Positions 33,722 to 46,434 of a stretch of DNA of 64,000 bases are shown in pieces; the first letter of the stretch is position 1, and every line of letters starts with the position of its first letter. The stretch lies in assembly GCA_903879985.1 (NCBI GenBank), contig CAIRNR010000007.1, positions 585,925 through 649,924 on the forward strand, in the 5' to 3' direction. The position numbers and the translations under genes were made by a program. The stretch is from an uncultured candidate division WWE3 bacterium. GTDB taxonomy: Bacteria > Patescibacteriota > WWE3 > UBA101185 > UBA10185. Under the pieces are notes generated by a model. That model searched no databases, was not told where the DNA came from, and saw nothing but the letters and a program-made list of their open reading frames with translations.

Positions 33722-34162
33722 TTATCTTTCAACCTCAACGCCCATTGCACGTGCTGTACCTGCTACAATTTTAACGGCTTCGGCTAATTCTTTGGTATTT
33801 AAATCTGGCATCTTAATTTTAGCTATATCTTCAACTTGAGCTTTAGTTAATTTACCGACTTTATTCTTGTTAGGTACACCTGAACCTTTAGCAATTTTTA
33901 ATGCTTTTTTAATTAAGTGAGATGTAACTGGTGTTTTAGTTATAAAGGTGAATGTACGATCCTCGTAGGCTGTTAAAATTACTGGAATAACGTCATCGCC
34001 CATTGATTGGGTTTTAGCGTTGAATTCCTTACAGAAATCCATAATTGGCACTCCGTGTTGTCCTAATGCAGGACCAATTGGAGGAGCTGGGTTTGCTTTA
34101 CCTGCTGGTATTGCCAATTTAACGATAGCTTTTATTTTTTTACCTTTTTTTACTTCTGCCAT
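33722..34162 (-). CDS. rplK: 50S ribosomal protein L11
   Basis: '[37 protein letters not shown]'. Confidence 0.9.
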
Positions 34163-34172
34163 AATTTTTCCT

Positions 34173-34799
34173 TTATAGTTGGGTAACTTGAGTGAAGTCC
34201 AGTTCTAACGGAGTTTCACGTCCAAATACTGATACTAAAACCCTAACTTTTCCTTGTTCATCATTAACTTCATCTACTTTACCTAAAAAGTCTTTGAAAG
34301 GTCCGTCGTTAACTTTAACTGAATCACCAACGGCGAACTTAGCTTCGAACTTAGGAGCTTCCATTTTAGCAAACTTCATCAAAGTTCTCACTTCTGATTC
34401 TGCTAGTGGAGTAGGGGTACTTCCCATGCCTACAAATCCTGTTACTCCTGGTGTAGTTCGGACAATATACCATGAATCATCCTCCATGCGCATCTGTACC
34501 ATCATATAACCTGGAAATAGCTTTTCGTCCACGGCTCTTTTTTTACCTTCTGAAACCACAATCTTTTGTTGATGTGGTACGAATATTTTAAAAATTCTGT
34601 CTGTAAATCCACCGGCTTCAGCTCTTTGTTTTAAAGTAATAGCAACTTTGTTTTCGTGACCTGAGTATGTATGTACAACGTACCAGTGAGCTCTTGGGTC
34701 AATATCTGGGTTAACGACAATTACTTTATCGTCCATGACAATAGGTGTCTGGGTTTCTTCATTTGTATCTGTTTTTTTTGTTTCGTCCATATTATCCAT
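34173..34799 (-). CDS. nusG: Transcription termination/antitermination factor NusG (with about 35-aa acidic N-terminal extension)
   Basis: '[14 protein letters not shown]...' NGN domain and KOW '...[25 protein letters not shown]...'. Confidence 0.85.
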
Positions 34800-34806
34800 A
34801 CTTGTA

Positions 34807-34992
34807 TTATTTATTTAACAGCACTGTTAACAATTGTGCAAATACTAAGTCAAAGAGCATTACGAATAAGCCAACGCCTAAACTAACACCTATTACAAAG
34901 CCAGTCAAGCGGGTAGTTTCTTGCTTGGTAGGCCAGGTGACTTTTTTAAGTTCTGCGTATGCTTCTTGAAAAAAGTTCTTTATCGATTGCAC
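34807..34992 (-). CDS. secE: Preprotein translocase subunit SecE
   Basis: 61 aa, '...ELKKVTWPTKQETTRLTGFVIGVSLGVGLFVMLFDLVFAQLL', immediately upstream of nusG. Confidence 0.7.
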   Translation of the reverse strand: MQSIKNFFQEAYAELKKVTWPTKQETTRLTGFVIGVSLGVGLFVMLFDLVFAQLLTVLLNK

Positions 34993-35110
34993 GCTCCGAA
35001 TTTTATCATTTTACCTGCAAAATGACAACAAAAAGCCGGTATTTGAGTTGTTTATAATAGGAATAGGGTAGTAATTAGCAATAATTTGGCTAAATTGCTA
35101 TAATTCGCTC

Positions 35111-35719
35111 ATGCTTTTAAGCTTATTATCCCAAGATCCTCGCGAGTTTATACTTGTGGTGGTCGCCTTAATTCTATCTTTGTCCTTTCACGAATTCGCA
35201 CATGCTTTTGTTGCGGATCGCTTAGGAGATGGTACGCCAAGAGCTATGGGGCGTTATACACTCAATCCTTTGGCTCATTTGGATCCTGTTGGCTCTTTAT
35301 TTTTGCTTGTGGCCGGTTTTGGCTGGGGAAAGCCTGTTCCGATTAACCCTTTTAATTTTAAGAACCCGCTTAAACATCAAGCTTTTGTTGCATTAGCCGG
35401 ACCTATGTCCAATTTTATATTGGCTATTATTGTTGCACTTATTATCAAGTTTACTGGTGCTTCCGGTTTGATATTTACTTTCTTGTATTTAGTAGTCAAG
35501 TTTAATTTGTTTTTGGGATTTTTCAACTTAATTCCATTTGGTCCTTTAGATGGTTTTAAAATTATCCAAGGATTTTTACCCGGAGATTTAGCTGTGCAGT
35601 GGGCTCAAATGGAGAAGTATGGTTTTATTATTCTATTAGTTTTAGTAATTACAAACGCAACCGGTAACTTTTTAGCGCCCCTAGTGAATTCTTCGTTAAT
35701 CCTTTTAGGTTTACATTGA
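35111..35719 (+). CDS. Site-2 protease family (peptidase M50B) membrane metalloprotease
   Basis: HExxH 'SFHEFAHAFVADR', multiple TM helices, 'NLIPFGPLDG' motif; TATAAT at 35099-35104, just 6 nt before the ATG. Confidence 0.7.
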   Translation: MLLSLLSQDPREFILVVVALILSLSFHEFAHAFVADRLGDGTPRAMGRYTLNPLAHLDPVGSLFLLVAGFGWGKPVPINPFNFKNPLKHQAFVALAGPMSNFILAIIVALIIKFTGASGLIFTFLYLVVKFNLFLGFFNLIPFGPLDGFKIIQGFLPGDLAVQWAQMEKYGFIILLVLVITNATGNFLAPLVNSSLILLGLH

Positions 35720-35757
35720 TATAACAGCTCCTAATTTTTCAAAAACCACTTTTTTCG

Positions 35758-36040
35758 TTTGATACAATTTTAGAGTTATGCTAAATTAAGCATAGATATC
35801 AAACCGATATCGAAAGTCCTGGTGTGATCGTTTAAACTGAAGGATATTAATCTTCCTTGACGATTTACATCGGTGGGATTCCGTCGTGTTTATGCTCCGT
35901 GGAGCGTAAGCTAGGAAGCCCTTCTTCTATAAACAGGAGAGCTGCTTCAGCGGTCCGTCACATCGGGAAGAACTTATTTTATTACTAATAACATTTTATT
36001 TGAGTCCTCGCTGTATGCGGGGACTCTTCGTTTCTGTTTC
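35758..36040 (+). ncRNA. Candidate structured non-coding RNA or structured leader (identity unknown), ending in a strong terminator hairpin
   Basis: A 345-bp ORF-free gap in a compact genome. It contains GC-rich islands ('ggtgggattccgtcgtgtttatgctccgtggagcgtaagctaggaagccc', 'gctgcttcagcggtccgtcacatcgggaag') within AT-rich DNA. A possible -35/-10 (TTGATA-N17-TAAATT) lies at 35758..35786 and a terminator at 36002..36040. Confidence 0.3.
36002..36040 (+). terminator. Rho-independent terminator (GAGUCC...GGACUC stem plus U-rich tail) just upstream of the folD promoter
   Basis: gagtcctcgctgtatgcggggactc followed by ttcgtttctgtttcc. Confidence 0.55.
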
Positions 36041-36064
36041 CAATACATTAATATATAATGAATC

Positions 36065-36865
36065 ATGCAGATTTTTGACGGTCATCATCACGCACAGCTT
36101 TTAGACGAGAAAATAGCAGACTTTCTAAAAACTCATTCTATTGATAAATCTTTAGTTATTGTTCAAGTCGGAGACGATCTTTCTTCCACAAAATATGTAA
36201 ATCTTAAAAAAAAGTACTGCGAAAAGTTTGGAATACCTGTGGAAATATATAATATTAATAGTAGCAATTCTGATGAAGAAATTTATAAACAAGTTGAGGA
36301 CATTTTTAACTCGTCAACTATTGGTGGGGGAATAATACAACTACCATTACCTCGCGAATCATTGTACGGCCTGTTAAATTTGATACCCGTTAGCAAAGAT
36401 ATAGATGTGATTTCGAGTAAAGGAGTTGCACAGTTCTATGCAGGTGACCTTAGCAGGTTATCCCCGGTAGTCAGAGCTACGCAGTACTTCATGAAACAAT
36501 GTCATATAGATAGCAATATTGATGCAACATTGATTGGAGAAGGCGTGCTGGTTGGTAAACCCTTGTCATACTTTTTAGCAAAAACAGGTCATAAGGTGCA
36601 AATTATTCAAAATTACACCACCGGAACACCTCTTAGCTGTCACTTATTGGTTTTAAGTGCTGGCGTTCCAAATCTAGTGCACGGCGAGGATATAACCCCC
36701 CAAGCAAATGTAATAGACTTTGGTTCTTCCGTTGTTGACAGTAAAACAGTAGGGGATTTAGATCTTAATAGCAACCTAAACCACTTAAATTTTGTCTCAC
36801 CTTCACCGGGGGGCATGGGGCCATTGGTGATCAGATTCTTGGTTATGAATTTTTTGGGGCTTTAA
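36065..36865 (+). CDS. folD: Bifunctional methylenetetrahydrofolate dehydrogenase/cyclohydrolase
   Basis: 'GGGIIQLPLP', 'NLVHGEDITPQANVIDFG', '...SPSPGGMGPL'; TATAAT at 36054-36059, 5 nt before the ATG. Confidence 0.85.
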   Translation: MQIFDGHHHAQLLDEKIADFLKTHSIDKSLVIVQVGDDLSSTKYVNLKKKYCEKFGIPVEIYNINSSNSDEEIYKQVEDIFNSSTIGGGIIQLPLPRESLYGLLNLIPVSKDIDVISSKGVAQFYAGDLSRLSPVVRATQYFMKQCHIDSNIDATLIGEGVLVGKPLSYFLAKTGHKVQIIQNYTTGTPLSCHLLVLSAGVPNLVHGEDITPQANVIDFGSSVVDSKTVGDLDLNSNLNHLNFVSPSPGGMGPLVIRFLVMNFLGL

Positions 36866-36901
36866 GCAGAGCTTTTTTTAACGTAAACTTTATATAAGTA
36901 T

Positions 36902-37387
36902 ATGAAGATCCACTTTGTAAGTTACGGACATGTTTTTCGTAGTCGCTTGGCGGAAGCTTATATAAGATATTTGTTAAGAAAACAGCCTCAGTATCAAATC
37001 ACCTCCTCAGGTATTAAATATGACAAAAGTATTCATGGGCCAATAGCTTGGTATGCTATGAAGTTATTGGCAGACCAGCAATTAACAGGTTTCATGACGG
37101 ATATACCTGTTTTAACTACTAAGGCTTTGTTGGAAGAACAGGATGTAGTCATTTTTATGGATGATATTTCAAAGGAATTTTGTGAGCGCCACTTTGGCTA
37201 TAGAAGTCGTACAGCCGAAGTATGGCGAATTGACTACGTACCCGCAACACCCGAGGGTAGTGGCAAAAGCTGGGAGAAAGACGCTTATTTGATATATATT
37301 TCTGAGCAGATTTTTAAGGCAATTCAAAAGGATTGTCAGCATTTTGTTGATGAACTAAACCATGTCGAGGTTCCTTTTCAGGCTTAG
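36902..37387 (+). CDS. Low-molecular-weight protein-tyrosine-phosphatase / ArsC-like fold protein with a degenerate P-loop (catalytic Cys replaced by Ser)
   Basis: N-terminal 'KIHFVSYGHVFRSRLAEAY' vs canonical LMW-PTP 'V.FVCLGNICRSPMAEA'. Confidence 0.45.
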   Translation: MKIHFVSYGHVFRSRLAEAYIRYLLRKQPQYQITSSGIKYDKSIHGPIAWYAMKLLADQQLTGFMTDIPVLTTKALLEEQDVVIFMDDISKEFCERHFGYRSRTAEVWRIDYVPATPEGSGKSWEKDAYLIYISEQIFKAIQKDCQHFVDELNHVEVPFQA

Positions 37388-37516
37388 TTGTGGCTTAAAT
37401 GCCTTGTTTTTTCAACTTTACAATTTTAGGGCAGTCTGGTAGAATGAACCCTATAGTTTTCAAACCCCGAGATTTAGGGGATTTTATCCATAAAAAAAAT
37501 ATAAGGAGAGTTATCA

Positions 37517-37918
37517 ATGAAACGTCGTTTGCAGTTAATTGCAAGAAAGTATGCACTGCCTGTATTTGGTGCCTTAGCACTGGTTTTTGGCTTGGCGCTA
37601 AGTTTTACCCCGGTTGCAGCGCAGTCAAGTTCGGGTTGGGCAACACCTACGCCGACTCCGCTGCCATCTACGTGGATCCCCCGCTGTGAACATGCGTTGG
37701 ACCAGATCGTTGGTATCAACCAGGCTGAATTCTATTCAGGACAGGTAGCATATTGCGTGCAGACCCTGCAATATGCTTATTCGAATGGAGCCTCGCTGAA
37801 TGTGGCATCGTTGCAGGTTGTTCGGCATTGGGAATATCGGTTTCATTTTAACGATAGTTCCTATATAGCAGGATATGCAATGGCCGAACTGCTTCGCCCA
37901 TCGTACATTTACCGCTAA
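37517..37918 (+). CDS. Small secreted hypothetical protein (signal peptide; Pro/Thr linker); first gene of the GC-richer accessory island
   Basis: RBS 'ataaggagag' before the ATG; signal 'ALPVFGALALVFGLALSFTPVAAQ'; by eye this segment is noticeably GC-richer than the flanks. Confidence 0.5.
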   Translation: MKRRLQLIARKYALPVFGALALVFGLALSFTPVAAQSSSGWATPTPTPLPSTWIPRCEHALDQIVGINQAEFYSGQVAYCVQTLQYAYSNGASLNVASLQVVRHWEYRFHFNDSSYIAGYAMAELLRPSYIYR

Positions 37919-37937
37919 AAGCTTTTTCTCTACACGT

Positions 37938-37986
37938 CCGGAATCTGTTATCACCAAATGATCACAGGTTCCGGATATTTTTTGTT
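37938..37986 (+). terminator. Rho-independent terminator (16-bp imperfect stem ccggaatctgttatca/tgatcacaggttccgg plus T-run)
   Basis: Read directly after the stop of 37517..37918. Confidence 0.6.
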
Positions 37987-38050
37987 ATCCACAAATTAGC
38001 TATAAGCTGTTGATAACTTTAGCTATAAGTCTTGTGGGGGATTTATGTTG

Positions 38051-38272
38051 CTACTGCGCTAGTAAATCGCTTGGGGATACTTTTAAAGCATTCGCGATAT
38101 CCACAATTTTCTTAAATGAAGGGTTACCTTCACCTCGTTCTATTTTTCCCATATATGATCGTTCGATTTTGGCTTTGTATGCCAAATCTTCCTGCGATAA
38201 ACCATCACGTAATCGCAGTGATTTTATTTTCTTTCCGAGAGCTTCTTGAGCTTTATACAACTGTACTGTCAT
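38051..38272 (-). CDS. XRE-family (Cro/C1-type) helix-turn-helix transcriptional regulator
   Basis: 'LRLRDGLSQEDLAYKAKIERSYMGKIERGEGNPSFKKIVDIANALKVSPSDLL'. Confidence 0.65.
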   Translation of the reverse strand: MTVQLYKAQEALGKKIKSLRLRDGLSQEDLAYKAKIERSYMGKIERGEGNPSFKKIVDIANALKVSPSDLLAQ

Positions 38273-38331
38273 AACCAGTTAATCATGGTTATTCGTTGCT
38301 TTACAGTCCACGTGATATATTACTCACAGGT

Positions 38332-38838
38332 ATGTGTTTAATGTTGCAGCCTATTGTTAAATGGAGTTTTTATCCTTCTGTTTCTGTGGCTAAATTAAAT
38401 TCACTTATCGGCGAAGATCTATTACTTACTTCTGATTTACACCGACTTTCTGGCAGCGTGACCTTTGACTTTGCCAGAAAAATATCTTGGGTTTCGTGTG
38501 CGCAAGGTACTTATACAATTCTTCTAAATTCACCCTATTGCTTTTTAGTTCGGCATAAACTAGTAGATGCCACGGACGTGATTATTTATTTCAATGTCTA
38601 TCGCAGAATACTTAATAAAAAACATGTTTGCACAGGTTATTTGGTTGTGGAAAATTCCGGTAACTCTGAAAGGAGTAGGGAAGTATATGTTTTATTCGAT
38701 TTCGCTGAAGCTCGTTTAAAAGTTAAGCACTCTACGTCCACGAATGCTTCAGATGTTCTCGATGATTTTGGTAACGCTAGCAATACTCCAAACGTGATGT
38801 GTTACGAACATGAATTTTTCTCTTTCGAGGTGATATAA
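38332..38838 (+). CDS. Hypothetical protein (island; divergent from the XRE regulator)
   Basis: ORF 38296..38838; start placed at an internal Met because the annotated start lies 24 bp from the divergent gene. Confidence 0.35.
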   Translation: MCLMLQPIVKWSFYPSVSVAKLNSLIGEDLLLTSDLHRLSGSVTFDFARKISWVSCAQGTYTILLNSPYCFLVRHKLVDATDVIIYFNVYRRILNKKHVCTGYLVVENSGNSERSREVYVLFDFAEARLKVKHSTSTNASDVLDDFGNASNTPNVMCYEHEFFSFEVI

Positions 38839-38866
38839 TTTTTATAATCAAAAAGGAGACCGCTCA

Positions 38867-39115
38867 ATGAAACAGCCAAATTTTGTTGGAAACGAAAACT
38901 GGGCAATTATGTTTGCAATGCGTCGTGGATTTACTCCCGGCTGCGTGGTTACTTCACCTGAAAAATTACATTATGATGTACTTTCGGATGTGAACATGTC
39001 CAATGACCACTTATTTGTACACGTACGCCCTGCTGGAATGTGTGATGCTGTGCTTCGTGATGTGACGATTGATATGAACACCAATGTCGTTTCATGGGGC
39101 GTACAGGCGATATGA
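38867..39115 (+). CDS. Hypothetical small protein (82 aa)
   Basis: Strong RBS 'aaaaggagac' 7 nt upstream of the ATG. Confidence 0.45.
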   Translation: MKQPNFVGNENWAIMFAMRRGFTPGCVVTSPEKLHYDVLSDVNMSNDHLFVHVRPAGMCDAVLRDVTIDMNTNVVSWGVQAI

Positions 39116-39216
39116 GCTACAAAGCTTCTTTAATAAAGGCTTGATTTAATAAAACAAATCAGGCCTTTCGTTTCCCCGGCGATACTTTTTATCCAAAATA
39201 TAATACAATTTACGTA

Positions 39217-40422
39217 ATGCCCGAAGAAATTAAATCCTTATTTGACTTTAAGGATTCAAAACCCAAATCATTATATAAAGTCACGTTTGGTGGTTGGTAC
39301 CAAAGAACTACACTTCATTTATCGGAAGTGTACGAATATTTAAAAAATTCTGATTCCCGATTAAATTTAGACAAAGACAAACTGAAGGTTTTACATGCGG
39401 CTCTTGGACTTGGGGAAGTTACACGTGAGTTGGGTTATTTAGAATATGTAAAAGCACAAACAATAGACGGTATAGATATCAAATATTATGAGGATGGCTT
39501 ATTTGTTTTGGAAACCATGAATTCTGATGTTGTTGCTGCCAAGGAAAAACTGGAAAAGTTTTATGAAGCTAAGTTTAACCCGGCACTAAGTTACATTTTT
39601 TCTCTAGGTGCGCCTACACCAAAGATATTAGCAAATCTAAAAACTCAGCACCCAACGGTTGTTTCTTACACGCTAAAGGATAAGTCTAAATTTGAGACGC
39701 CAGAAAATATTTACAGCAAGGTTGTTTCACCTGACATTGATGTTTACAAATCAAACGATTTTATTTACATAGTTAAAAAAGATAAAAGCACCGTTTCACT
39801 TGACGAGGTTGTTGAAATGCAAATATTTTTTCGCGAGTTCAAGGACCAATTGGAGAAATATTTAAATATTCATCGTCGCGTTTGGGAAGATATCTCGGAA
39901 ATAAAAGATAGCGGAAGTATAAAAATAAAAGAAATAGATCCAATCAGAAAAAAACTTGATGCTTATCAAAAAACAATTAGTCTGATTTCAAATCGTATAA
40001 ACCAAATGGGTTCATATGTTCGCACGCGCCAGTCTATAGCTAAAAAAGCGGGGATTGATGAACATTTACAGAACATGTTTCAGTATCGATTTGAGGTTTT
40101 AATAGATACTTTGGATTATATAAAGGAAATTTGGAAAATGACGACAGACTATGTCAATTCTGCCATACAGGTTGTAGTCGAACTTCAGAACTCTGCAACT
40201 AACAAAAGTATTCAATCATTGACCTTAATTACATCTATGGGAGTAATTGCAGGGCTTGTAGCTTATTTATCTCGTGATACTTATCCAAAAATTACATTGG
40301 TGGGCGCAACATACTTGGGAGGACTGCTGTTTGTTGGTTGGTTACTTAATAAAGCCGTTGCCGTTTGGGTAGCAAATAGAAAACAGCGCTTGAAGTTTAC
40401 AAAAACAGATAGCGATATTTAG
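39217..40422 (+). CDS. CorA/MIT-superfamily-like membrane protein lacking the GMN signature (large cytoplasmic N-domain, long helix, two C-terminal TM helices)
   Basis: C-terminus 'NKSIQSLTLITSMGVIAGLVAYLSRDTYPKITLVGATYLGGLLFVGWLLNKAVAVWVANRKQRLKF' parallels CorA 'N.vMK.LT.iT.IF.P.TfIaGiYGMNF...KRK.WL', but 'YGMNF' is replaced by 'VAYLSRD'. Confidence 0.45.
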   Translation: MPEEIKSLFDFKDSKPKSLYKVTFGGWYQRTTLHLSEVYEYLKNSDSRLNLDKDKLKVLHAALGLGEVTRELGYLEYVKAQTIDGIDIKYYEDGLFVLETMNSDVVAAKEKLEKFYEAKFNPALSYIFSLGAPTPKILANLKTQHPTVVSYTLKDKSKFETPENIYSKVVSPDIDVYKSNDFIYIVKKDKSTVSLDEVVEMQIFFREFKDQLEKYLNIHRRVWEDISEIKDSGSIKIKEIDPIRKKLDAYQKTISLISNRINQMGSYVRTRQSIAKKAGIDEHLQNMFQYRFEVLIDTLDYIKEIWKMTTDYVNSAIQVVVELQNSATNKSIQSLTLITSMGVIAGLVAYLSRDTYPKITLVGATYLGGLLFVGWLLNKAVAVWVANRKQRLKFTKTDSDI

Positions 40423-40671
40423 CTAGTTTAGAAAACATAGGCCCCCTTTCAAGCCAAATTTGTTTGAGAGAGGGTCGTGAGAGAGATACACGCACAACTT
40501 AATATTTGTAATTCGAGGGCAAATTTTTAGCTCTTTGAGTTTTTTGTTTATGCACGGTAAGGCACCCGTGTTATTTCTGTTGTGCAAAGATGTTTGCAGA
40601 TTTTGGCTATTGCGCTTCACTTTTTTCATGTTTAGACTATAAGTAATTACTCTCTAGAAAAGGAGAACGCA

Positions 40672-40959
40672 ATGAATTTGTCTACTTCCCTTTATACGTA
40701 TGGTGTATGCATTAATCCCGTCGTGCGAGAAAGACTTCGTCGAAAAGAAATTAAAGAAGCTGTTCTTGATGTGTTGCGGGAAAACCTTTTACCTCCATTA
40801 ACCGTTCTGGGAATTATGCGCCGGCTTAAAGAAAAGCATATCTGCGCCTCTGTCCAGGACATCGAGCGTGCCATTCAGCAGTTAAAGCGCTCCGGTGAAA
40901 GTATTAGCATTATCGTTACAAGAACTGTTACAGTTAGCTTCCATGATTCCGGTGATTAA
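40672..40959 (+). CDS. Hypothetical small protein (95 aa; possibly a winged-helix fold)
   Basis: RBS 'aaaaggagaacgca' before the ATG; ORF in track. Confidence 0.4.
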   Translation: MNLSTSLYTYGVCINPVVRERLRRKEIKEAVLDVLRENLLPPLTVLGIMRRLKEKHICASVQDIERAIQQLKRSGESISIIVTRTVTVSFHDSGD

Positions 40960-41080
40960 AAACCAGGGGGATTTTAGGTGACAAGGCCCGATGTATACTA
41001 TGTATATTTCGGGTCTTTTTTTATTCCCTTTTTAGGGCGTATAATCCAGAAAATACATCAAGAAGTAGAAGGAGTAATCA

Positions 41081-41335
41081 ATGAAAGCAGAAGATATTAC
41101 TTTGAGAGTAGTGCGACTTGATCCGGGGGAGCTTAACCAAATTATGAGTACAAAAGGGTTTACGCTGCTCGCGTTGGCTGAAAAAACCGGAATTGCTGCG
41201 GTTACCTTAGCATGTTTGCTTGAAGGCAAAACGCCTCTTACACATTCTTGGGCGCTTAGTATTTGCACTGCTTTAGAAATTTCTTTTGTAGATACCTTCG
41301 GGGACCTGTTTGAGCAGCCAGCACATATCAACTGA
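41081..41335 (+). CDS. XRE-family HTH regulator (84 aa)
   Basis: 'NQIMSTKGFTLLALAEKTGIAAVTLACLLEGKTPLTHSWALSICTALEISFVDTF'; -10 'GCGTATAATCC' at about 41034..41044 and RBS 'gaaggag'. Confidence 0.55.
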   Translation: MKAEDITLRVVRLDPGELNQIMSTKGFTLLALAEKTGIAAVTLACLLEGKTPLTHSWALSICTALEISFVDTFGDLFEQPAHIN

Positions 41336-41378
41336 TAAAGAAATCAAAAAAATAAAAATGATAGAAAGGAAGGAAAAA

Positions 41379-41651
41379 ATGGAGAAGGTAGTGGGAGCCC
41401 GCGGCGAAATATTATATGCCTCATTCGGCAATGCCGCCTATCCGGTGCAAGTTACTTATATAGGCATGTCGGATGGTTTGCAGGTTACCGGAGCACGCAT
41501 ATACGCCGAAGGAAAACGTATTGGTATTTGGAACGCCAACCCTGATGCAAGTCACGCCCCCAAGCAACTTGCAAAATCTTTGGCTGCCTACATTACCCAA
41601 ATCTTGAACCACAAGAACTGGGAAGCTCACAGCTCGGTTTATCCAGATTAA
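41379..41651 (+). CDS. Hypothetical protein (about 90 aa)
   Basis: ORF 41310..41651; the likely start is the ATG at 41379, preceded by 'aaggaagg'. Confidence 0.35.
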   Translation: MEKVVGARGEILYASFGNAAYPVQVTYIGMSDGLQVTGARIYAEGKRIGIWNANPDASHAPKQLAKSLAAYITQILNHKNWEAHSSVYPD

Positions 41652-41671
41652 AATCAATGGATAAACTTAAA

Positions 41672-41710
41672 GGTCAACTTAACAAAAGTAAGTTGGCCTT
41701 TTCTTTTTTA
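41672..41710 (+). terminator. Rho-independent terminator (ggtcaactta/taagttggcc stem, T-rich tail)
   Basis: Read directly downstream of 41651. Confidence 0.55.
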
Positions 41711-41720
41711 TATCGTAAAT

Positions 41721-41762
41721 AAAAAAAGGTTAGCTTATCTGTTGTTTTAGATAGGCTAACCT
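41721..41762 (-). terminator. Terminator for the minus-strand two-gene operon (14-bp stem aggttagcttatct/agataggctaacct; A7 on plus = U7 on minus)
   Basis: Read directly. Confidence 0.55.
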
Positions 41763-41785
41763 TTATGGTCTTGCGACATTAGGCA

Positions 41786-42172
41786 TTATGCGGCCGGTAG
41801 AATGTACGGCAAGGTAAATAAGACTATATCGTAGGAGAAAAGCGAATTAATATCGCCTTCTGTGAACGTGATATATACCTTTGATCCATAACGGCTAAGG
41901 GGCATAAGTTCATAAATTCCCTTATGATAATTTTCTGCTCGGGCAAGTGCGTACCAGGTTGCATCTATAAAAGTAGGACCCTTTGTAAATACATATCCCC
42001 GAATGTCTACTTCCCATGCGCGCTTGGCGTAGTCCAGGTTATATTCGTTGCATATTCCTGTTGTGGGCCAGACACTTTTTGGTAAAAAGGGAAGCCACAT
42101 CTTAACGGTTCGGGCGCTTTTTATTTTCATTCCCTTCATTTCTTCAAGGTTTATGATCTGTGGTGCGGACAT
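41786..42172 (-). CDS. Hypothetical protein (128 aa), second gene of a two-gene operon
   Basis: ORF in track; 13 bp after the upstream gene. Confidence 0.4.
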   Translation of the reverse strand: MSAPQIINLEEMKGMKIKSARTVKMWLPFLPKSVWPTTGICNEYNLDYAKRAWEVDIRGYVFTKGPTFIDATWYALARAENYHKGIYELMPLSRYGSKVYITFTEGDINSLFSYDIVLFTLPYILPAA

Positions 42173-42185
42173 CTTTGTCTCTCCT

Positions 42186-42458
42186 CTACATTTCTATTTT
42201 TTTTAGTTCCTCGATAAGATCTTTTATGATTTGTGTAAGTTCATCGCGGGTTGCTTCGACAAAACCGGGGTTTTTGTAGATAATCAAAGCTCTGGCGGCG
42301 AGTGCTTCAACTGTTGGATAGGTTTTTGGTATTACTCCCAGATTTTTGGCCGTTTCCATATGTTCCCTCACAAGTTCTTTACTGAAAGGGAAGTATATCG
42401 GTTCAACAAAAAGCAGGTCGTTTTCGAGCTGTGTAATAAGCTCTAAAAATGTATACAT
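42186..42458 (-). CDS. Hypothetical protein (90 aa), first gene of a two-gene operon divergent from an XRE regulator
   Basis: RBS 'aaaaggagac' and -10 'CATATAAT' upstream on the minus strand. Confidence 0.45.
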   Translation of the reverse strand: MYTFLELITQLENDLLFVEPIYFPFSKELVREHMETAKNLGVIPKTYPTVEALAARALIIYKNPGFVEATRDELTQIIKDLIEELKKIEM

Positions 42459-42562
42459 GTGCTTGTCTCCTTTTCTTTTTTGTCTAATTAAGCGCGATTA
42501 TATGCTAGGTGATTAGCTAACGCAATTTAACAGGGGTATAATCCACGAAATTAATCAAGTCT

Positions 42563-42832
42563 ATGTTAAAGGAGAGAACAGTTATGAAACTTGTTAAGCA
42601 GCCGGTAATTGTAACGTTGGTTTTTCTGGAAAATGAGGAAGAGTTGATGGATTTGGCACGAAAGGAAGGTTGTGAAACACCCGAAAATTTTGCTCGCGAG
42701 GCCAACATACCAATTTCACAAATGTACGGAATATTAAAAGGGGAGATTGGTATAACAAAGGATATGGCGATTCAATTTGCGAATGGCATGGGTGTATCGC
42801 TACGAAAATTATTTGGCAATGTTTTTGATTAA
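42563..42832 (+). CDS. XRE-family HTH regulator (89 aa)
   Basis: 'ENFAREANIPISQMYGILKGEIGITKDMAIQFANGMGVSLRKLF'; -10 'GGGTATAATCC', RBS 'aaaggagag'. Confidence 0.6.
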   Translation: MLKERTVMKLVKQPVIVTLVFLENEEELMDLARKEGCETPENFAREANIPISQMYGILKGEIGITKDMAIQFANGMGVSLRKLFGNVFD

Positions 42833-42847
42833 TATGCTTAAAAAGAA

Positions 42848-42893
42848 AGACCCTCGAAATGTTTTGTTACATTTGAGGGTCCTTTGTATTTAT
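42848..42893. terminator. Bidirectional rho-independent terminator (13-bp stem gaccctcgaaatgt/acatttgagggtc flanked by an A-run and a T-run)
   Basis: Read directly between the convergent genes 42563..42832(+) and 42896..43294(-). Confidence 0.65.
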
Positions 42894-42895
42894 TA

Positions 42896-43219
42896 TTACT
42901 CTGATTGTAGCCCGGCAATTATTTTGATAAGTGTCGGACCCTGCACTTTTCGAATCTCGTGGGCTATCATGCCGAATATCATATTGCGTGGCGGATTTTT
43001 CAAAGCTTCAAGTTCATTGATTCTTATATTTCCATCCTCGATCCATACTGCAACCCACGGCTTACTTTTTGGAAATAATTTATCCAGGTGGTGCGGAACG
43101 ATAAGCAAGTGGGCAGGTTCTTTTTTATTGTCTACAATTTTATGTCCCGCTTGGGTTAATATTTCCTGCAATACCTTTTTGTGTTCCGGGAATGCTCTAA
43201 AGCCAACTAATGCTATTTT
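42896..43219 (-). CDS. Hypothetical protein (about 108 aa)
   Basis: ORF 42896..43294; start trimmed to 'MKIALVGF...' to avoid a 60-nt overlap with the upstream ORF. Confidence 0.35.
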   Translation of the reverse strand, partial: KIALVGFRAFPEHKKVLQEILTQAGHKIVDNKKEPAHLLIVPHHLDKLFPKSKPWVAVWIEDGNIRINELEALKNPPRNMIFGMIAHEIRKVQGPTLIKIIAGLQSE

Positions 43220-43233
43220 CATGCTTTCCTTCC

Positions 43234-43569
43234 TTATAAGTGGACCCAATATATTGCATGTTGCGAGGCATACTTTGTTGCACAACCGTACCATTTTTCT
43301 ACAGGTTCTTGTGCAACAATTTCACTTGCTTTTGCCCGTATTTCCTGGGAAGTTTTTGTAATTAATCCCGCCTGACGAAGCTCGCCGACCTTATCTGAAA
43401 AGATTATGTCTATGCGCATCCGGTCAGCAGGATCCTTTGTTGTGTCGATTGCTTTTCGGTACCGTACCATGAATTCTCGATCTAATTCGTAAACAATAGC
43501 TTCCAGTATTGTCATCATCACCATCGTGACTTTTTGCTCCGTAGACATGCTATCAAGTGTCGTACTCAT
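43234..43569 (-). CDS. Hypothetical protein (111 aa)
   Basis: Strong RBS 'aaaaggaggaagttaaa' upstream on the minus strand. Confidence 0.45.
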   Translation of the reverse strand: MSTTLDSMSTEQKVTMVMMTILEAIVYELDREFMVRYRKAIDTTKDPADRMRIDIIFSDKVGELRQAGLITKTSQEIRAKASEIVAQEPVEKWYGCATKYASQHAIYWVHL

Positions 43570-43651
43570 TTTAACTTCCTCCTTTTACATAGGTATTTAT
43601 TGAATGGGATTATATATGATTTATGAAGAGTTTACAAACTATAGGATTGAT

Positions 43652-43725
43652 TGGCAGGGACGGAGTGAATCGAACACTCATTGGCGGTTTTGGAGACCGC
43701 AATCCTACCATTGAATGACGTCCCT
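43652..43725 (-). tRNA. tRNA-Trp (anticodon CCA), 3' CCA encoded
   Basis: Reverse complement AGGGACGUCAUUCAAUGGUAGGAUUGCGGUCUCCAAAACCGCCAAUGAGUGUUCGAUUCACUCCGUCCCUGCCA folds as a cloverleaf; anticodon loop CUCCAAA. Confidence 0.85.
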
Positions 43726-43736
43726 AAAAAATTTAC

Positions 43737-43812
43737 TGGAGCCCACTCGCGGAATCGGACCGCGGACCACTTCCTTACCATGGAAGTGCTCTACCAACTG
43801 AGCTAAGTGGGC
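43737..43812 (-). tRNA. tRNA-Thr (anticodon GGU), CCA encoded
   Basis: Reverse complement GCCCACUUAGCUCAGUUGGUAGAGCACUUCCAUGGUAAGGAAGUGGUCCGCGGUCCGAUUCCGCGAGUGGGCUCCA; anticodon loop AUGGUAA. Confidence 0.8.
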
Positions 43813-43836
43813 ATCTCCGTTAGGAACAATTTTGCA

Positions 43837-43922
43837 TGGTGCCGGGAGAGGGATTTGGACCCCCGAAGGCGTACGCCAGCTGATTTACAGTCAGCTCCAT
43901 TTGACCACTTTGGTATCCCGGC
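43837..43922 (-). tRNA. tRNA-Tyr (anticodon GUA) with long variable arm, CCA encoded
   Basis: Reverse complement GCCGGGAUACCAAAGUGGUCAAAUGGAGCUGACUGUAAAUCAGCUGGCGUACGCCUUCGGGGGUCCAAAUCCCUCUCCCGGCACCA. Confidence 0.8.
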
Positions 43923-43950
43923 AAAATATTTCTAAACACTAAAGCTTTTC

Positions 43951-44025
43951 TGGAGCCAAAGGTGGGAATCGGACCCACAACCTGCTGTTTACAAAACAGC
44001 TGCTCTACCATTGAGCTACTTTGGC
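43951..44025 (-). tRNA. tRNA-Thr (anticodon UGU), CCA encoded
   Basis: Reverse complement GCCAAAGUAGCUCAAUGGUAGAGCAGCUGUUUUGUAAACAGCAGGUUGUGGGUCCGAUUCCCACCUUUGGCUCCA; anticodon loop UUUGUAA. Confidence 0.8.
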
Positions 44026-44266: not shown

Positions 44267-44524
44267 ATGTCAGTAGCAAAGAAGCCGCAATGTAATCCGG
44301 ATTCCGGAGATGATTCTAAAAGGGTCAAAGTTGTGAAGCATCCAGGTCGCTCCGACGGAAAGTTTGATCAACCAAACGCAATGTTTTATCGAGGTCCTGC
44401 AATTCCGGAGCCGGTACATGACGCTAAAATAGGAAGTCCTTGCCGAACTTGTCTCGAAGGCATTATTTCATCGGCAAACTGTGGAAAGCTAAAGAAGTGT
44501 CCTAAAAACATATTCACTAGCTAG
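44267..44524 (+). CDS. Hypothetical small basic Cys-containing protein (85 aa)
   Basis: Tandemly duplicated RBS-containing 12-mer 'taggagaggtaa' x2 upstream; terminator follows. Confidence 0.4.
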   Translation: MSVAKKPQCNPDSGDDSKRVKVVKHPGRSDGKFDQPNAMFYRGPAIPEPVHDAKIGSPCRTCLEGIISSANCGKLKKCPKNIFTS

Positions 44525-44580: not shown

Positions 44581-44629
44581 GCTATGCAATTGACACTAAC
44601 CCCTATTCCATGCTTTAATTGCGTCTGCT

Positions 44630-44875
44630 ATGTCAAGAATATGCGATATCTGTGAAAAAACTTATCAAACCGGTAATTTAGTCCCAAGAGGGATTGGTAA
44701 TCGTGTTACAAAACGTACCAGTACTCACAATATGGCTAATTTGAGAAGTAAGAAGTTTGAGATTAACGGTCGTAAAATAAGAGTCACACTTTGCTCTTCT
44801 TGCTTAAAAAGAATCAAAAAAGATACCCGAGATGCTGTAAAAGTTGAGACAGTAGAGACCGAAGCTAAAGCTTAA
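44630..44875 (+). CDS. rpmB: 50S ribosomal protein L28
   Basis: 'MSRICDICEKTYQTGNLVPRGIGNRVTKRTSTHNMANLRSKKF..' matches the L28 pattern MSR.C...GK....GN.VS.....T.R...PNL; -35 TTGACA at 44591-44596. Confidence 0.55.
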   Translation: MSRICDICEKTYQTGNLVPRGIGNRVTKRTSTHNMANLRSKKFEINGRKIRVTLCSSCLKRIKKDTRDAVKVETVETEAKA

Positions 44876-44886
44876 TTTTAATTTAG

Positions 44887-45828
44887 TTATTTTTCCACGT
44901 AACCGTTTTCGAATTCTTTCCAATCCATTTTTGTTTTGCCTTCTACCTGTAATTTTTTTATATCGATTTTTCCTTCAATTAAGTCAGTTTCATAGATCTT
45001 TACTTTAAGATTTTTATCTACGTGGCTTTTAAGCTTAATTTTTTGTGGCAAATTACCGTTATTTTCTAATTCCTTAATGTATGTCCATGAAATTGGCCAT
45101 GGATTAAAGGCTCGTACCTGTTTCTCAATAACTTCGTTGTTATCTTTCCAGTTTATTTGAGCGTCTTCTTTGTATATAAAAGTATGTGTTGGGTGATTCT
45201 TGGAATATGTATAAGTAGCCATTTCTTCATCCTGAGGTAGGGGACTAAGTTTACCGGAAATGTAATCTTCTAAAATTTTTGGCAGTTTATCGGCGGCAAC
45301 TTTAAAAAGAGTTTCGTAAAGTTCGCCTGAAGTTTCTTTGTATGTAACTTTGTACCCAATTTGATATAAAATAGCTCCTGCATCCATTCTTCTATTTACC
45401 AGTTGGAACGTAATTCCCGTGTTTTCGTCGCCGTTTAGCACTGCAAATTGAACTGGACTTGCTCCACGATACTTGGGTAAAAGTGAAAAATGAATGTTTA
45501 TTAAGTTTTTGCTTTCAAAATGTTCTATTAGCTTTTCGGGAATAATAAATGCAAAATCAGCAACGATACCGTATTCAATCTTCTGTGTTTTTAGATCTTT
45601 CATGACCTGTTCGAGATCACTTTCTTTTAGGGAATTTACTTCTACATATCTAATATTGTTTTCCTTAGCCCATTTTTTAACGCCTGTTTCTTTACTTTCC
45701 TGATCGCGTCCAACTTTAACGTCTCGTTTGGTTACGCATAGTGCTAAATTAAAAGAATCTTTAAGTGATTCCAGTAAGGGGATTGATCTATCTGATGTGC
45801 CAAAGAATGCCACTCTTACATTGTTCAT
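44887..45828 (-). CDS. fmt: Methionyl-tRNA formyltransferase
   Basis: 'INIHFSLLPKYRGASPVQFAVLNGDENTGITF'; 4-nt overlap with def. Confidence 0.85.
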   Translation of the reverse strand: MNNVRVAFFGTSDRSIPLLESLKDSFNLALCVTKRDVKVGRDQESKETGVKKWAKENNIRYVEVNSLKESDLEQVMKDLKTQKIEYGIVADFAFIIPEKLIEHFESKNLINIHFSLLPKYRGASPVQFAVLNGDENTGITFQLVNRRMDAGAILYQIGYKVTYKETSGELYETLFKVAADKLPKILEDYISGKLSPLPQDEEMATYTYSKNHPTHTFIYKEDAQINWKDNNEVIEKQVRAFNPWPISWTYIKELENNGNLPQKIKLKSHVDKNLKVKIYETDLIEGKIDIKKLQVEGKTKMDWKEFENGYVEK

Positions 45829-46358
45829 ACAGTAGCTCCAAAAAGTCGATCTAAATCGGCTTCAGTTAAAACCTTACCTATAACGCGGTCGGTAAATAAA
45901 ACGCCGTCTAAATGATCAATTTCATGTTGAATGACGCGAGCAAAAAATCCGTGTGCTTTAAATTTTATGGTATCCCCACTTAAATCCTGTGCAATTACTT
46001 TTATTTTTTGATACCTTTCAACTTCTCCATATGCGTTTGGAACACTTAAACAACCTTCCCAATCAATGTCTGTTTCTTTTGACTCGCTAACGATTTTTGG
46101 GTTAATTAGAATGAAGTCTTCCTTTATGGTTCTGCGGCTGTTTGTTGGATCTTCAAAGAAGTTACGGACAACACAAATACGCTTGGCCACGCCTATTTGA
46201 TTTGCGGCCAAACCGGCACCTTCTGGCTTTGAAGCCACATCTAAGGTATCGACCAAATCTTTGGCTATTTGCTTGATTTCATCATTTATTTCCCGTATTT
46301 TTTCACCCTTTTGACTAAGAATGTCCTCGGGTATTGTATGTATTCTTCTAACTACCAT
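45825..46358 (-). CDS. def: Peptide deformylase
   Basis: Motifs 'GAGLAANQIGV', 'EGCLSVP', 'QHEIDHLDG'. Confidence 0.9.
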   Translation of the reverse strand: MVVRRIHTIPEDILSQKGEKIREINDEIKQIAKDLVDTLDVASKPEGAGLAANQIGVAKRICVVRNFFEDPTNSRRTIKEDFILINPKIVSESKETDIDWEGCLSVPNAYGEVERYQKIKVIAQDLSGDTIKFKAHGFFARVIQHEIDHLDGVLFTDRVIGKVLTEADLDRLFGATV

Positions 46359-46434
46359 GCTGCTATTTTAACATTTTAGTTTGCCGGCGCGTATACTATA
46401 AGAAAAATCGGCTAATGTAGTAGGAGGAGGATAT

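What the first reader, a model, noticed from the sequence alone, without database searches (positions are those of the whole stretch)
37400..43652. About 6.2-kb accessory island next to tRNA-Trp, interrupting conserved tRNA-(rpmG)-secE-nusG synteny
On the minus strand the order is tRNA-Thr, Tyr, Thr, Trp, then an 8.6-kb interval, then secE-nusG-rplK-rplA. In most bacteria tRNA-Trp lies directly upstream of (rpmG-)secE. The distal 6.2 kb of the interval (37.4-43.65 kb) is visibly GC-richer (first gene near 50% vs about 37% background) and every gene has a strong SD. It has its own sigma70-like promoters, some sharing a 'TATAATCC' -10 (41036, 42535), and clean bidirectional terminators. It encodes three XRE regulators, a secreted protein, a CorA-like membrane protein and eight or more proteins of unknown function arranged as regulator-plus-cargo modules. 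No integrase is present, so this looks like an old tRNA-targeted integration remnant or a phage-derived moron cluster. The regulator-divergent-operon layout is typical of anti-phage defence or toxin-antitoxin islands, but no component matches a defence family I can name, so it may be a novel system.
Basis: partly seen in the sequence, partly recalled or inferred. Interest (0 to 1): 0.7.

Follow-up and report, generated by a model that had tools for sequence, protein, structure and literature searches.

The report
Variable orphan-gene cluster beside tRNA genes
This stretch of a tiny uncultured bacterium (candidate division WWE3) is a species-specific patch of small regulator genes and orphan genes, sitting at a spot that differs in every related genome, with no sign of a phage, integrase or known defence system.

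Summary
Four tRNAs (Thr-Tyr-Thr-Trp) are followed by an 8.66-kb gap to secE-nusG-rplK-rplA. The distal 6.2 kb holds 13 well-punctuated genes.

- **Organism and synteny.** The organism is a candidate division WWE3 (CPR) bacterium. In all WWE3 relatives, M50 peptidase-folD(-LMW phosphatase) already separates secE from the tRNAs, so the synteny break is ancestral.
- **Variability.** The part between the tRNAs and folD/LMWP varies between relatives from about 0.3-0.6 kb to over 9 kb, with unrelated content. This supports an accessory, flexible locus.
- **Composition.** Bulk GC is not raised (0.390 vs 0.397). Third-position GC of the genes is raised (0.384 vs 0.310). Ten of 13 genes have strong Shine-Dalgarno sites, unlike the mostly leaderless-type native genes.
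- **Mosaic.** The 401-aa "CorA-like" gene is native in style. It belongs to a Patescibacteria-wide family with a CorA fold but no GMN motif, found in unrelated contexts elsewhere.
- **No mobility or defence evidence.** I found no integrase, no att copy of tRNA-Trp, and no PADLOC, PHROG, Pfam, phage or plasmid match.
- **Orphans.** The small proteins are orphans.

Most likely this is a set of XRE-controlled, lineage-specific accessory cassettes of unknown cargo function. Interest is low to moderate.

The parts
43652..44025 (-). tRNA cluster Thr(tgt)-Tyr(gta)-Thr(ggt)-Trp(cca). This is the conserved right anchor of the variable locus.
   Evidence: ARAGORN and Rfam tRNA at 55-73 bits. The same cluster occurs in WWE3 relatives.
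34807..37387 (.). Conserved left block: secE (34807-34992, -), M50 peptidase (35111-35719, +), folD (36065-36865, +) and LMW phosphatase (36902-37387, +). It is not part of the variable region.
   Evidence: Pfam. The same order is found in more than 20 WWE3 loci.
37517..37918 (+). i1: 133-aa orphan with an N-terminal Sec-type signal peptide. It has the highest GC of the region (0.494), an AAGGAG SD, and its own hairpin terminator around 37936-37976.
   Evidence: No family, PDB or viral match.
38051..38272 (-). i2X: 73-aa XRE-family HTH regulator, divergent from i3-i4. GC3 is native-like (0.301) and there is no SD.
   Evidence: HTH_3 E 1.4e-12. A 45%-identical XRE lies in the equivalent region of relative L104.
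38341..39115 (+). i3 (38341-38838, 165 aa; the ORF is open from TTG 38296) and i4 (38867-39115, 82 aa). They form an orphan pair downstream of the divergent XRE promoter.
   Evidence: An exhaustive HMMER search of 1.84 billion representatives found only 4 non-self hits for i3. Homologue P0137 is followed by an 86-aa gene. The AF2 model failed, with pLDDT 42.
39217..40422 (+). i5: 401-aa membrane protein with a CorA fold. It has an N-terminal alpha/beta domain, long stalk helices and two C-terminal TM helices, but no GMN motif. It is native in style: GC3 0.299, no SD, and a -10-like hexamer 7 nt before the ATG.
40672..41651 (+). i6 (40672-40959, 95 aa), XRE i7X (41081-41335, 84 aa) and i8 (41379-41651, 90 aa). 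All are SD-led. The unit ends at the terminator hairpin 41669-41701.
   Evidence: HTH_26 E 6.5e-6 for i7X. SD sites. Terminator. A 39%-identical XRE lies in relative L037.
41786..42458 (-). i10 (42186-42458, 90 aa) and i9 (41786-42172, 128 aa). This is a two-gene orphan operon with a 13-nt spacer and an SD before each gene. It is divergent from XRE i11X and ends at a hairpin around 41725-41764.
   Evidence: No family, PDB or viral match.
42584..42832 (+). i11X: 82-aa divergent XRE-like HTH protein, followed by the bidirectional terminator hairpin at 42849-42881.
   Evidence: HTH_3 E 0.05. BLASTP to i7X gives E 2e-5, and to the L037 XRE E 5e-9. Fold z-scores are -4.4 and -6.1.
42896..43569 (-). 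i13 (43234-43569, 111 aa) and i12 (42896-43222, 108 aa). This is a two-gene orphan operon with a TTGTAA-17-TATAAT promoter at 43637-43609 next to tRNA-Trp.
   Evidence: No family, PDB or viral match.
41036..41062 (+). 27-nt -10/leader element (GGCGTATAATCC...) upstream of i7X. A second copy lies at 42533-42559 upstream of i11X (81% identical).
   Evidence: family D2. It is the highest-scoring of 650 comparisons (325 intergenic-region pairs, each scored in direct and inverted orientation) in the window.
37443..37465 (+). Left arm of a 19/23 inverted repeat. The right arm (43630-43652) abuts the CCA end of tRNA-Trp, so the two arms bracket the 6.2 kb.
   Evidence: I3. Shuffle p is about 0.0015, but the pair only reaches the top 1.5% or so of native intergenic comparisons. 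The evidence is weak.

Best explanation
The interval 37.4-43.65 kb is the local content of a flexible locus in WWE3 (Katanobacteria, CPR) genomes. The locus lies between two conserved anchors. One is the rpmB/tRNA-Thr-Tyr-Thr-Trp cluster. The other is the (LMWP-)folD-M50-secE-nusG block. It is a mosaic, not one integrated element.

(a) One part is a native-type, Patescibacteria-wide gene for a CorA-fold membrane protein. By analogy it is most likely an oligomeric cation channel or transporter. It has a native leaderless-type promoter.

(b) The other part is about ten species-specific small orphan genes in five separately promoted and terminated units. They are interleaved with three XRE-family HTH proteins and one possible winged-helix protein (i6).

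The inferred mechanism is as follows. The XRE proteins bind the shared or divergent promoter regions, for example the 27-nt element common to the i7X and i11X leaders. In this way they repress or autoregulate the neighbouring cassettes. The cargo comprises one secreted protein and several small cytoplasmic proteins, and its function is unknown. The strong SD sites and higher GC3 of the cargo suggest acquisition from an unsampled source, or a distinct expression regime.

Shown: the anatomy, the variability among relatives, the composition and SD contrast, the CorA fold, and the absence of mobility, phage or defence signatures. Inferred: regulation by the XREs, channel function of i5, and foreign origin of the orphans.
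For: - **Organism and conserved anchors.** NusG is 84% identical to WWE3 MAGs. The order topA-def-fmt-rpmB-tRNAs-[variable]-(LMWP)-folD-M50-secE-nusG-rplK-rplA is seen in more than 20 loci.
- **Variable size.** The gap is 0.3-0.6 kb in L019, L023, L028 and L031; 2.3-3.5 kb in L013, L027 and L037; and 7.5-9.2 kb in L022, L035 and L104. Further insertions lie between the tRNAs in L013 and L031.
- **Unrelated content in relatives.** The gaps hold MscL, RRM, ArsR, glutaredoxin, NUDIX, amylase, beta-lactamase, SNase, a trypsin-like peptidase and XRE. No integrase is among the 25 most frequent of 35 Pfam families matched by the pooled gap ORFs.
- **Shared genes.** Only XREs are shared with the window.
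- **Composition.** GC3 is 0.384 against 0.310, p = 4e-4.
- **Initiation signals.** SD of at least 5 nt precedes 10/13 island genes, against 3/15 (p = 0.007) or 8/34 (p = 0.002) core genes. A -10-like hexamer ends 5-7 nt before the start of nusG, secE, M50, folD, def and i5.
- **Delimited transcription units.** Terminators and promoters bound each unit.
- **Stability.** The cluster is identical (99.98-100%) in contigs from several metagenomes, so it is stably carried.
Against: - No function is demonstrated for any cargo gene.
- Only i3 was searched exhaustively. The two word-index searches used concatenated queries and are weak negatives.
- No relative closer than about 84% NusG identity was available. 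Gain or loss of the cluster therefore cannot be dated, and dN/dS cannot be computed.
- The GC3 and SD contrast could reflect expression level or operon position rather than foreign origin.
- The 19/23 inverted repeat at both borders could mean the whole 6.2 kb was once a single bounded element. That would contradict the mosaic reading.
Confidence: 0.55

Rival explanations
1. The 6.2 kb is a decayed integrative element (prophage remnant, moron cluster or genomic island). It entered at the 3' end of tRNA-Trp and later lost its integrase.
For: - It lies immediately next to the CCA end of tRNA-Trp.
- Its genes are GC3-richer and SD-led, unlike native genes.
- XRE (Cro/CI-type) regulators sit in divergent layouts.
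- A 19/23 inverted repeat lies exactly at both borders, with shuffle p about 0.0015.
- CPR phages are poorly sampled, so missing hits are weak evidence.
Against: - No integrase, recombinase or transposase domain is present.
- The far border has no direct repeat of the tRNA-Trp 3' end.
- Nothing matched in PHROGs, 50,697 phage records, 72,556 plasmids or IMG/VR.
- Bulk GC equals the background.
- A native-type, phylum-wide gene (i5) sits in the middle.
- Relatives' content at the same locus is ordinary cellular genes with no integrase among the 25 most frequent Pfam families.
- The border repeat is only in the top 1.5% or so of native intergenic comparisons.
Confidence: 0.2
2. One or more cassettes (XRE i7X-i8, i10-i9 with divergent XRE i11X, i13-i12) are toxin-antitoxin, abortive-infection or other anti-phage modules of a new type.
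For: - The genes are small and paired, with short spacers, their own promoters and terminators, and adjacent XRE regulators. This layout is common to type II TA and many defence loci.
- They sit in a variable locus.
- CorA-superfamily proteins are known membrane effectors in some defence systems (own knowledge, not tested here).
Against: - No PADLOC, Pfam, NCBIfam or PDB sequence match exists for any cargo protein.
- No recognisable toxin fold or catalytic motif was seen.
- The pairs are not conserved as pairs anywhere that could be examined.
- The CorA-fold gene occurs alone in unrelated housekeeping contexts in other genomes and is absent from IMG/VR. It is therefore not a dedicated partner of these cassettes.
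Confidence: 0.12
3. Some of the small ORFs are not functional genes. They would be young, de novo or decaying reading frames in a loosely constrained intergenic-rich region.
For: - They are orphans with no homologues.
- Coding density is lower, 80% against 90%.
- The i3 structure prediction failed.
- No population variation was available to test for purifying selection.
Against: - The ORFs are 82-165 codons long in a 39% GC genome.
- Ten of 13 have correctly spaced AAGGAG-type SD sites, a frequency far above the genome norm.
- Promoter-like sites and strong terminators bracket them precisely.
- i3 has conserved homologues at 50% and 37% identity.
Confidence: 0.08

Closest known systems
Regions of genomic plasticity / flexible genomic islands anchored next to tRNA genes
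   Same: The position is fixed between conserved anchors. Content and length differ between related genomes. The locus is rich in orphans and small regulators, and codon and initiation signals are atypical.
   Different: There is no integrase, no att direct repeat and no bulk GC deviation. One embedded gene is native and phylum-wide. Relatives fill the same locus with ordinary cellular genes.
CorA/ZntB/Mrs2 divalent-cation channel superfamily (Pfam PF01544)
   Same: The predicted fold of the 401-aa protein matches. It has an N-terminal alpha/beta domain, long stalk helices running into TM1, a second TM helix and a basic C-terminus. CorA structures top Foldseek in both the PDB and viral libraries.
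   Different: None of 48 family members matches Pfam CorA even at E 0.1. The signature GMN motif after TM1 is absent; the family consensus there is G-Y-L-S-K-x3-P-K. Sequence identity is about 10% and TM-score about 0.3.
XRE (Cro/CI, HTH_3) regulator plus divergent or downstream small-gene cassettes, as in type II TA and prophage immunity regions
   Same: Three XRE-type HTH proteins of 73-84 aa are placed divergently from, or just upstream of, small two-gene operons.
   Different: No partner protein matches any toxin, antitoxin, ImmA/IrrE protease or defence family.

Membership tests
tRNA-targeted integrative element (genomic island or prophage remnant) | Integrase or recombinase gene at one end | tested here: not met
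   No such Pfam, PHROG, NCBIfam or PADLOC domain occurs in any of the 13 proteins.
tRNA-targeted integrative element (genomic island or prophage remnant) | Direct repeat of the tRNA 3' end (attL/attR) at the distal border | tested here: not met
   Local alignment of tRNA-Trp, both strands, against 37340-37600 scored 6.0 and 6.5. The shuffle means were 7.0 and 7.2.
tRNA-targeted integrative element (genomic island or prophage remnant) | Absent from related genomes at the same site, with atypical composition | tested here: inconclusive
   The genes are absent from all relatives. However, those relatives are distant (NusG at most 84% identical) and carry other content at the site. Bulk GC is normal, while GC3 and SD usage are atypical.
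Phage-derived genes (morons) | Homology to phage proteins or location on viral contigs | tested here: not met
   PHROGs gave 0 hits. tblastn against phages gave no match. Eight IMG/VR scans gave none.
Known anti-phage defence systems | Match of at least one component to a PADLOC model | tested here: not met
   There were 0 families for all 10 non-HTH proteins at E<=0.01.
Type II toxin-antitoxin module | Recognisable toxin family next to an HTH antitoxin, with toxicity neutralised by the partner | tested here: not met
   No toxin family was found by Pfam, NCBIfam or PDB sequence search. Toxicity cannot be tested with these tools.
CorA metal-ion transporter family | CorA fold: cytosolic alpha/beta domain, stalk helix and two C-terminal TM helices | tested here: met
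CorA metal-ion transporter family | Sequence membership (Pfam PF01544) and the GMN signature after TM1 | tested here: not met
   None of 48 members matched PF01544. There is no GMN in the query or in the family consensus.
CorA metal-ion transporter family | Pentameric assembly and cation conduction | not testable with these tools
   Only a monomer was modelled, and there is no functional assay.
XRE-family transcriptional regulators | Cro/C1-type HTH domain | tested here: met
   i2X matches HTH_3 at 1.4e-12 and i7X matches HTH_26 at 6.5e-6. i11X is weak (HTH_3 0.05, below the cutoff) but related to i7X and to the L037 XRE.

The most novel reading that the evidence does not exclude
The ten SD-led, GC3-rich orphan genes, together with their three XRE and one possible winged-helix regulators, could form one or more previously undescribed modules. 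These might be toxin/immunity, anti-phage or host-interaction modules controlled by the regulators. They would be specific to CPR bacteria and acquired from an unsampled CPR mobile element whose ends survive as the 23-nt inverted repeat.
Probability: 0.12. Interest if true: 0.6.

Novelty: new member of a known kind. Interest (0 to 1): 0.27.

Why it matters
The finding is mainly a calibration case. A "tRNA-adjacent island that breaks conserved synteny" turned out to be an ancient, clade-wide rearrangement plus an ordinary flexible locus. The "GC-rich" impression did not survive calculation.

Two by-products may be useful.

1. In this WWE3 genome, native genes look leaderless, with a -10-like hexamer ending 5-7 nt before the start codon. 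The accessory orphans use strong Shine-Dalgarno sites. This gives a simple signal for separating native from acquired genes in CPR genomes, if it generalises.

2. A large Patescibacteria-wide protein family has no Pfam or NCBIfam model. It has a CorA fold but lacks the GMN motif, so it is a candidate uncharacterised ion channel of these reduced-genome bacteria.

If any cassette proved to be a TA or defence module, it would add to the very sparse catalogue of such systems in CPR bacteria.

Tried and rejected
- **Family libraries.** Pfam, PHROGs, PADLOC and NCBIfam were run on all non-HTH proteins. Nothing credible was found.
- **Concatenated word-index searches.** Two searches used concatenated small proteins to save the cap. 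They gave no hits.
- **Exhaustive HMMER search of i3.** It found only two small homologues, plus short repeat-like matches in two giant proteins. i3 is not related to the window's own giant ORF.
- **AF2 of i3.** A 3-sequence alignment gave pLDDT 42, which is unusable.
- **PDB sequence search.** Eight small proteins gave only noise, such as designed TIM barrels with no passing stretch.
- **tblastn.** The ten concatenated proteins were searched against the phage and plasmid collections. There was no match.
- **IMG/VR.** Eight scans found nothing.
- **Metagenome scan with LMWP.** This was meant to find a close relative with an empty site. Only relatives at 44-58% identity turned up.
- **att remnant search.** Negative.
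- **Border inverted repeat as TIR.** It is significant against shuffles but unremarkable against native intergenic pairs, so I did not rely on it.
- **Other checks.** No paralogues of island genes occur elsewhere in the window. Rfam found only the four tRNAs. Literature searches gave nothing specific.

Full report
**Observation**

ARAGORN and Rfam place tRNA-Thr(tgt), Tyr, Thr(ggt) and Trp on the minus strand at 43652-44025. secE (34807-34992), nusG, rplK and rplA follow on the same strand.

Its proximal 2.4 kb encodes an M50 peptidase, FolD and a low-molecular-weight phosphatase. The distal 6.2 kb encodes 13 genes. Independent gene calls on identical contigs from other metagenomes agree with them.

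Two of the 13 are clear XRE HTH proteins. A third is a divergent one.

The island GC is 0.390 against 0.397 for the rest, and 53% of equal-sized windows are at least as GC-rich. Only the first gene is conspicuous (GC 0.494).

At the third codon position the island genes are richer: 0.384 against 0.310 for 34 core genes, Mann-Whitney p = 4e-4. Coding density is lower, 80% against 90%.

**Organism and synteny**

A scan of 185,579 species genomes with NusG identifies the organism as a candidate division WWE3 (CPR/Patescibacteria) bacterium. The best identity is 84%.

In more than 20 WWE3 loci the order is conserved: topA-def-fmt-rpmB-[tRNA cluster]-[variable]-(LMWP)-folD-M50-secE-nusG-rplK-rplA. 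The separation of tRNA-Trp from secE by M50-folD is therefore ancestral to the clade.

Only non-CPR loci (L078, L081, L082, L085) show tRNA-Trp directly before secE. Most Microgenomates loci have no tRNA within 6 kb of nusG.

The segment between the tRNAs and folD/LMWP does vary:
- 0.3-0.6 kb in L019, L023, L028 and L031;
- 2.3-3.5 kb in L013, L027 and L037;
- 7.5-9.2 kb in L022, L035 and L104;
- with further insertions between the tRNAs in L013 and L031.

Relatives fill this segment with MscL, RRM proteins, ArsR, glutaredoxin, NUDIX, amylase, beta-lactamase, a nuclease, a peptidase and XRE regulators. No integrase is among the 25 most frequent of the 35 Pfam families matched by the pooled gap ORFs, nor in the L104 proteins scanned individually.

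Of the window's genes, only XRE-type regulators have counterparts there. The cluster is identical (99.98-100%) in contigs from several samples, so no within-species variation was available.

**The CorA-like gene**

The 401-aa protein has 1043 homologues at E<=1e-3, with 50-64% identity among the 120 best listed, and those that carry a source name come from Patescibacteria/Parcubacteria. It lies in six unrelated genomic contexts. No member matches any Pfam family convincingly, and the family is absent from IMG/VR.

The GMN signature is absent from the protein and from the family consensus.

The gene also looks native. Its GC3 is 0.299, it has no SD, and a -10-like hexamer ends 7 nt before the ATG. 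This matches nusG, secE, M50, folD and def. It is therefore a native, standalone gene and not island cargo.

**The small genes**

None of the ten non-HTH small proteins matches Pfam, PHROGs, PADLOC, NCBIfam or PDB sequences. All are singletons at 90% identity.

An exhaustive HMMER search for i3 found only four non-self hits. Its structure prediction failed.

tblastn against phage and plasmid collections and eight IMG/VR scans found nothing.

The genes nevertheless look real:
- Ten of 13 have an SD of at least 5 nt. The figure for core genes is 3/15 with gene-caller starts, or 8/34 under a liberal best-start rule (p = 0.007 and 0.002).
- Promoter-like sites and strong hairpin terminators delimit five units.
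- Two XRE genes share a 27-nt -10/leader element, although their proteins are only 21% identical.

**Mobility signatures**

The left border holds no copy of the tRNA-Trp 3' end.

A 19/23 inverted repeat does sit exactly at both borders, at 37443-37465 and 43630-43652. It beats 99.85% of shuffles. It is only in the top 1.5% or so of native intergenic comparisons in the window. I record it as unresolved.

**Verdict**

The interval is a mosaic flexible locus. A native CorA-fold gene is flanked by species-specific, SD-led, GC3-richer orphan cassettes with XRE regulators.

The accessory nature is supported. The synteny-interruption, tRNA-integration, phage and defence readings are not, although the last two cannot be excluded for orphan proteins.

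The most likely working model is XRE-mediated repression of small accessory cassettes of unknown cargo function. I give this explanation about 0.55 confidence.

Noticed in passing
window 183-26681 (-): There is a single uninterrupted ORF of 8832 aa. The only Pfam hits are a MerR-like HTH at residues 25-58 and a Peptidase_S74 intramolecular-chaperone domain (as in endosialidase and tail-fibre proteins) near the C-terminus. It is not related to island protein i3.
   Followed up: partly
window 39217-40422 (+) and loci L007, L009, L011, L094, L096: This is a Patescibacteria-wide protein family (over 1000 homologues) with no Pfam or NCBIfam model. It has a CorA fold and no GMN motif, and always occurs as a standalone gene in varying contexts. 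It is a candidate uncharacterised ion channel of CPR bacteria.
   Followed up: yes
window 34100-37000 and 44600-46400 (start regions of nusG, secE, M50, folD, def): Native first-in-operon genes carry a -10-like hexamer ending 5-7 nt before the start codon and lack an SD. This suggests widespread leaderless mRNAs in this WWE3 genome. Under a liberal best-start rule 8 of 34 core ORFs have an SD of at least 5 nt; in ten relatives the figure is 38 of 163 flanking ORFs, about 23%.
   Followed up: partly
window 44267-44524 (+); L013:328-591, L019:5797-6045, L023:6441-6725, L028:3058-3303, L031:505-771, L025:6850-7140: A small ORF (81-96 aa) always sits between rpmB and the tRNA cluster. There is almost no sequence similarity between genomes, but all share a Cys-rich C-terminal pattern (C-x2-C ... 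C). It may be a fast-evolving, positionally conserved zinc-ribbon-like protein.
   Followed up: partly
window 37443-37465 and 43630-43652: A 19/23 inverted repeat lies exactly at the two borders of the 6.2 kb. The right arm abuts the CCA end of tRNA-Trp and overlaps the -35 of the i13 promoter. The left arm starts at the -10 of the i1 promoter. It could be an operator pair, a TIR relic or chance.
   Followed up: partly
L013 938-4993; L031 1110-8719: In some WWE3 relatives the tRNA cluster itself is split by insertions. L013 has 2.5 kb and 1.4 kb inserts. L031 has a 7.6-kb insert that includes a 1763-aa ORF. The whole rpmB-tRNA-folD zone is therefore a rearrangement hotspot.
   Followed up: no
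L104 10481-19728: The equivalent 9.2-kb region of another WWE3 genome holds an RRM protein, an RDD/trypsin-like peptidase, an SNase-Excalibur nuclease, and an XRE (45% identical to i2X) divergent from unknown genes.
   Followed up: partly
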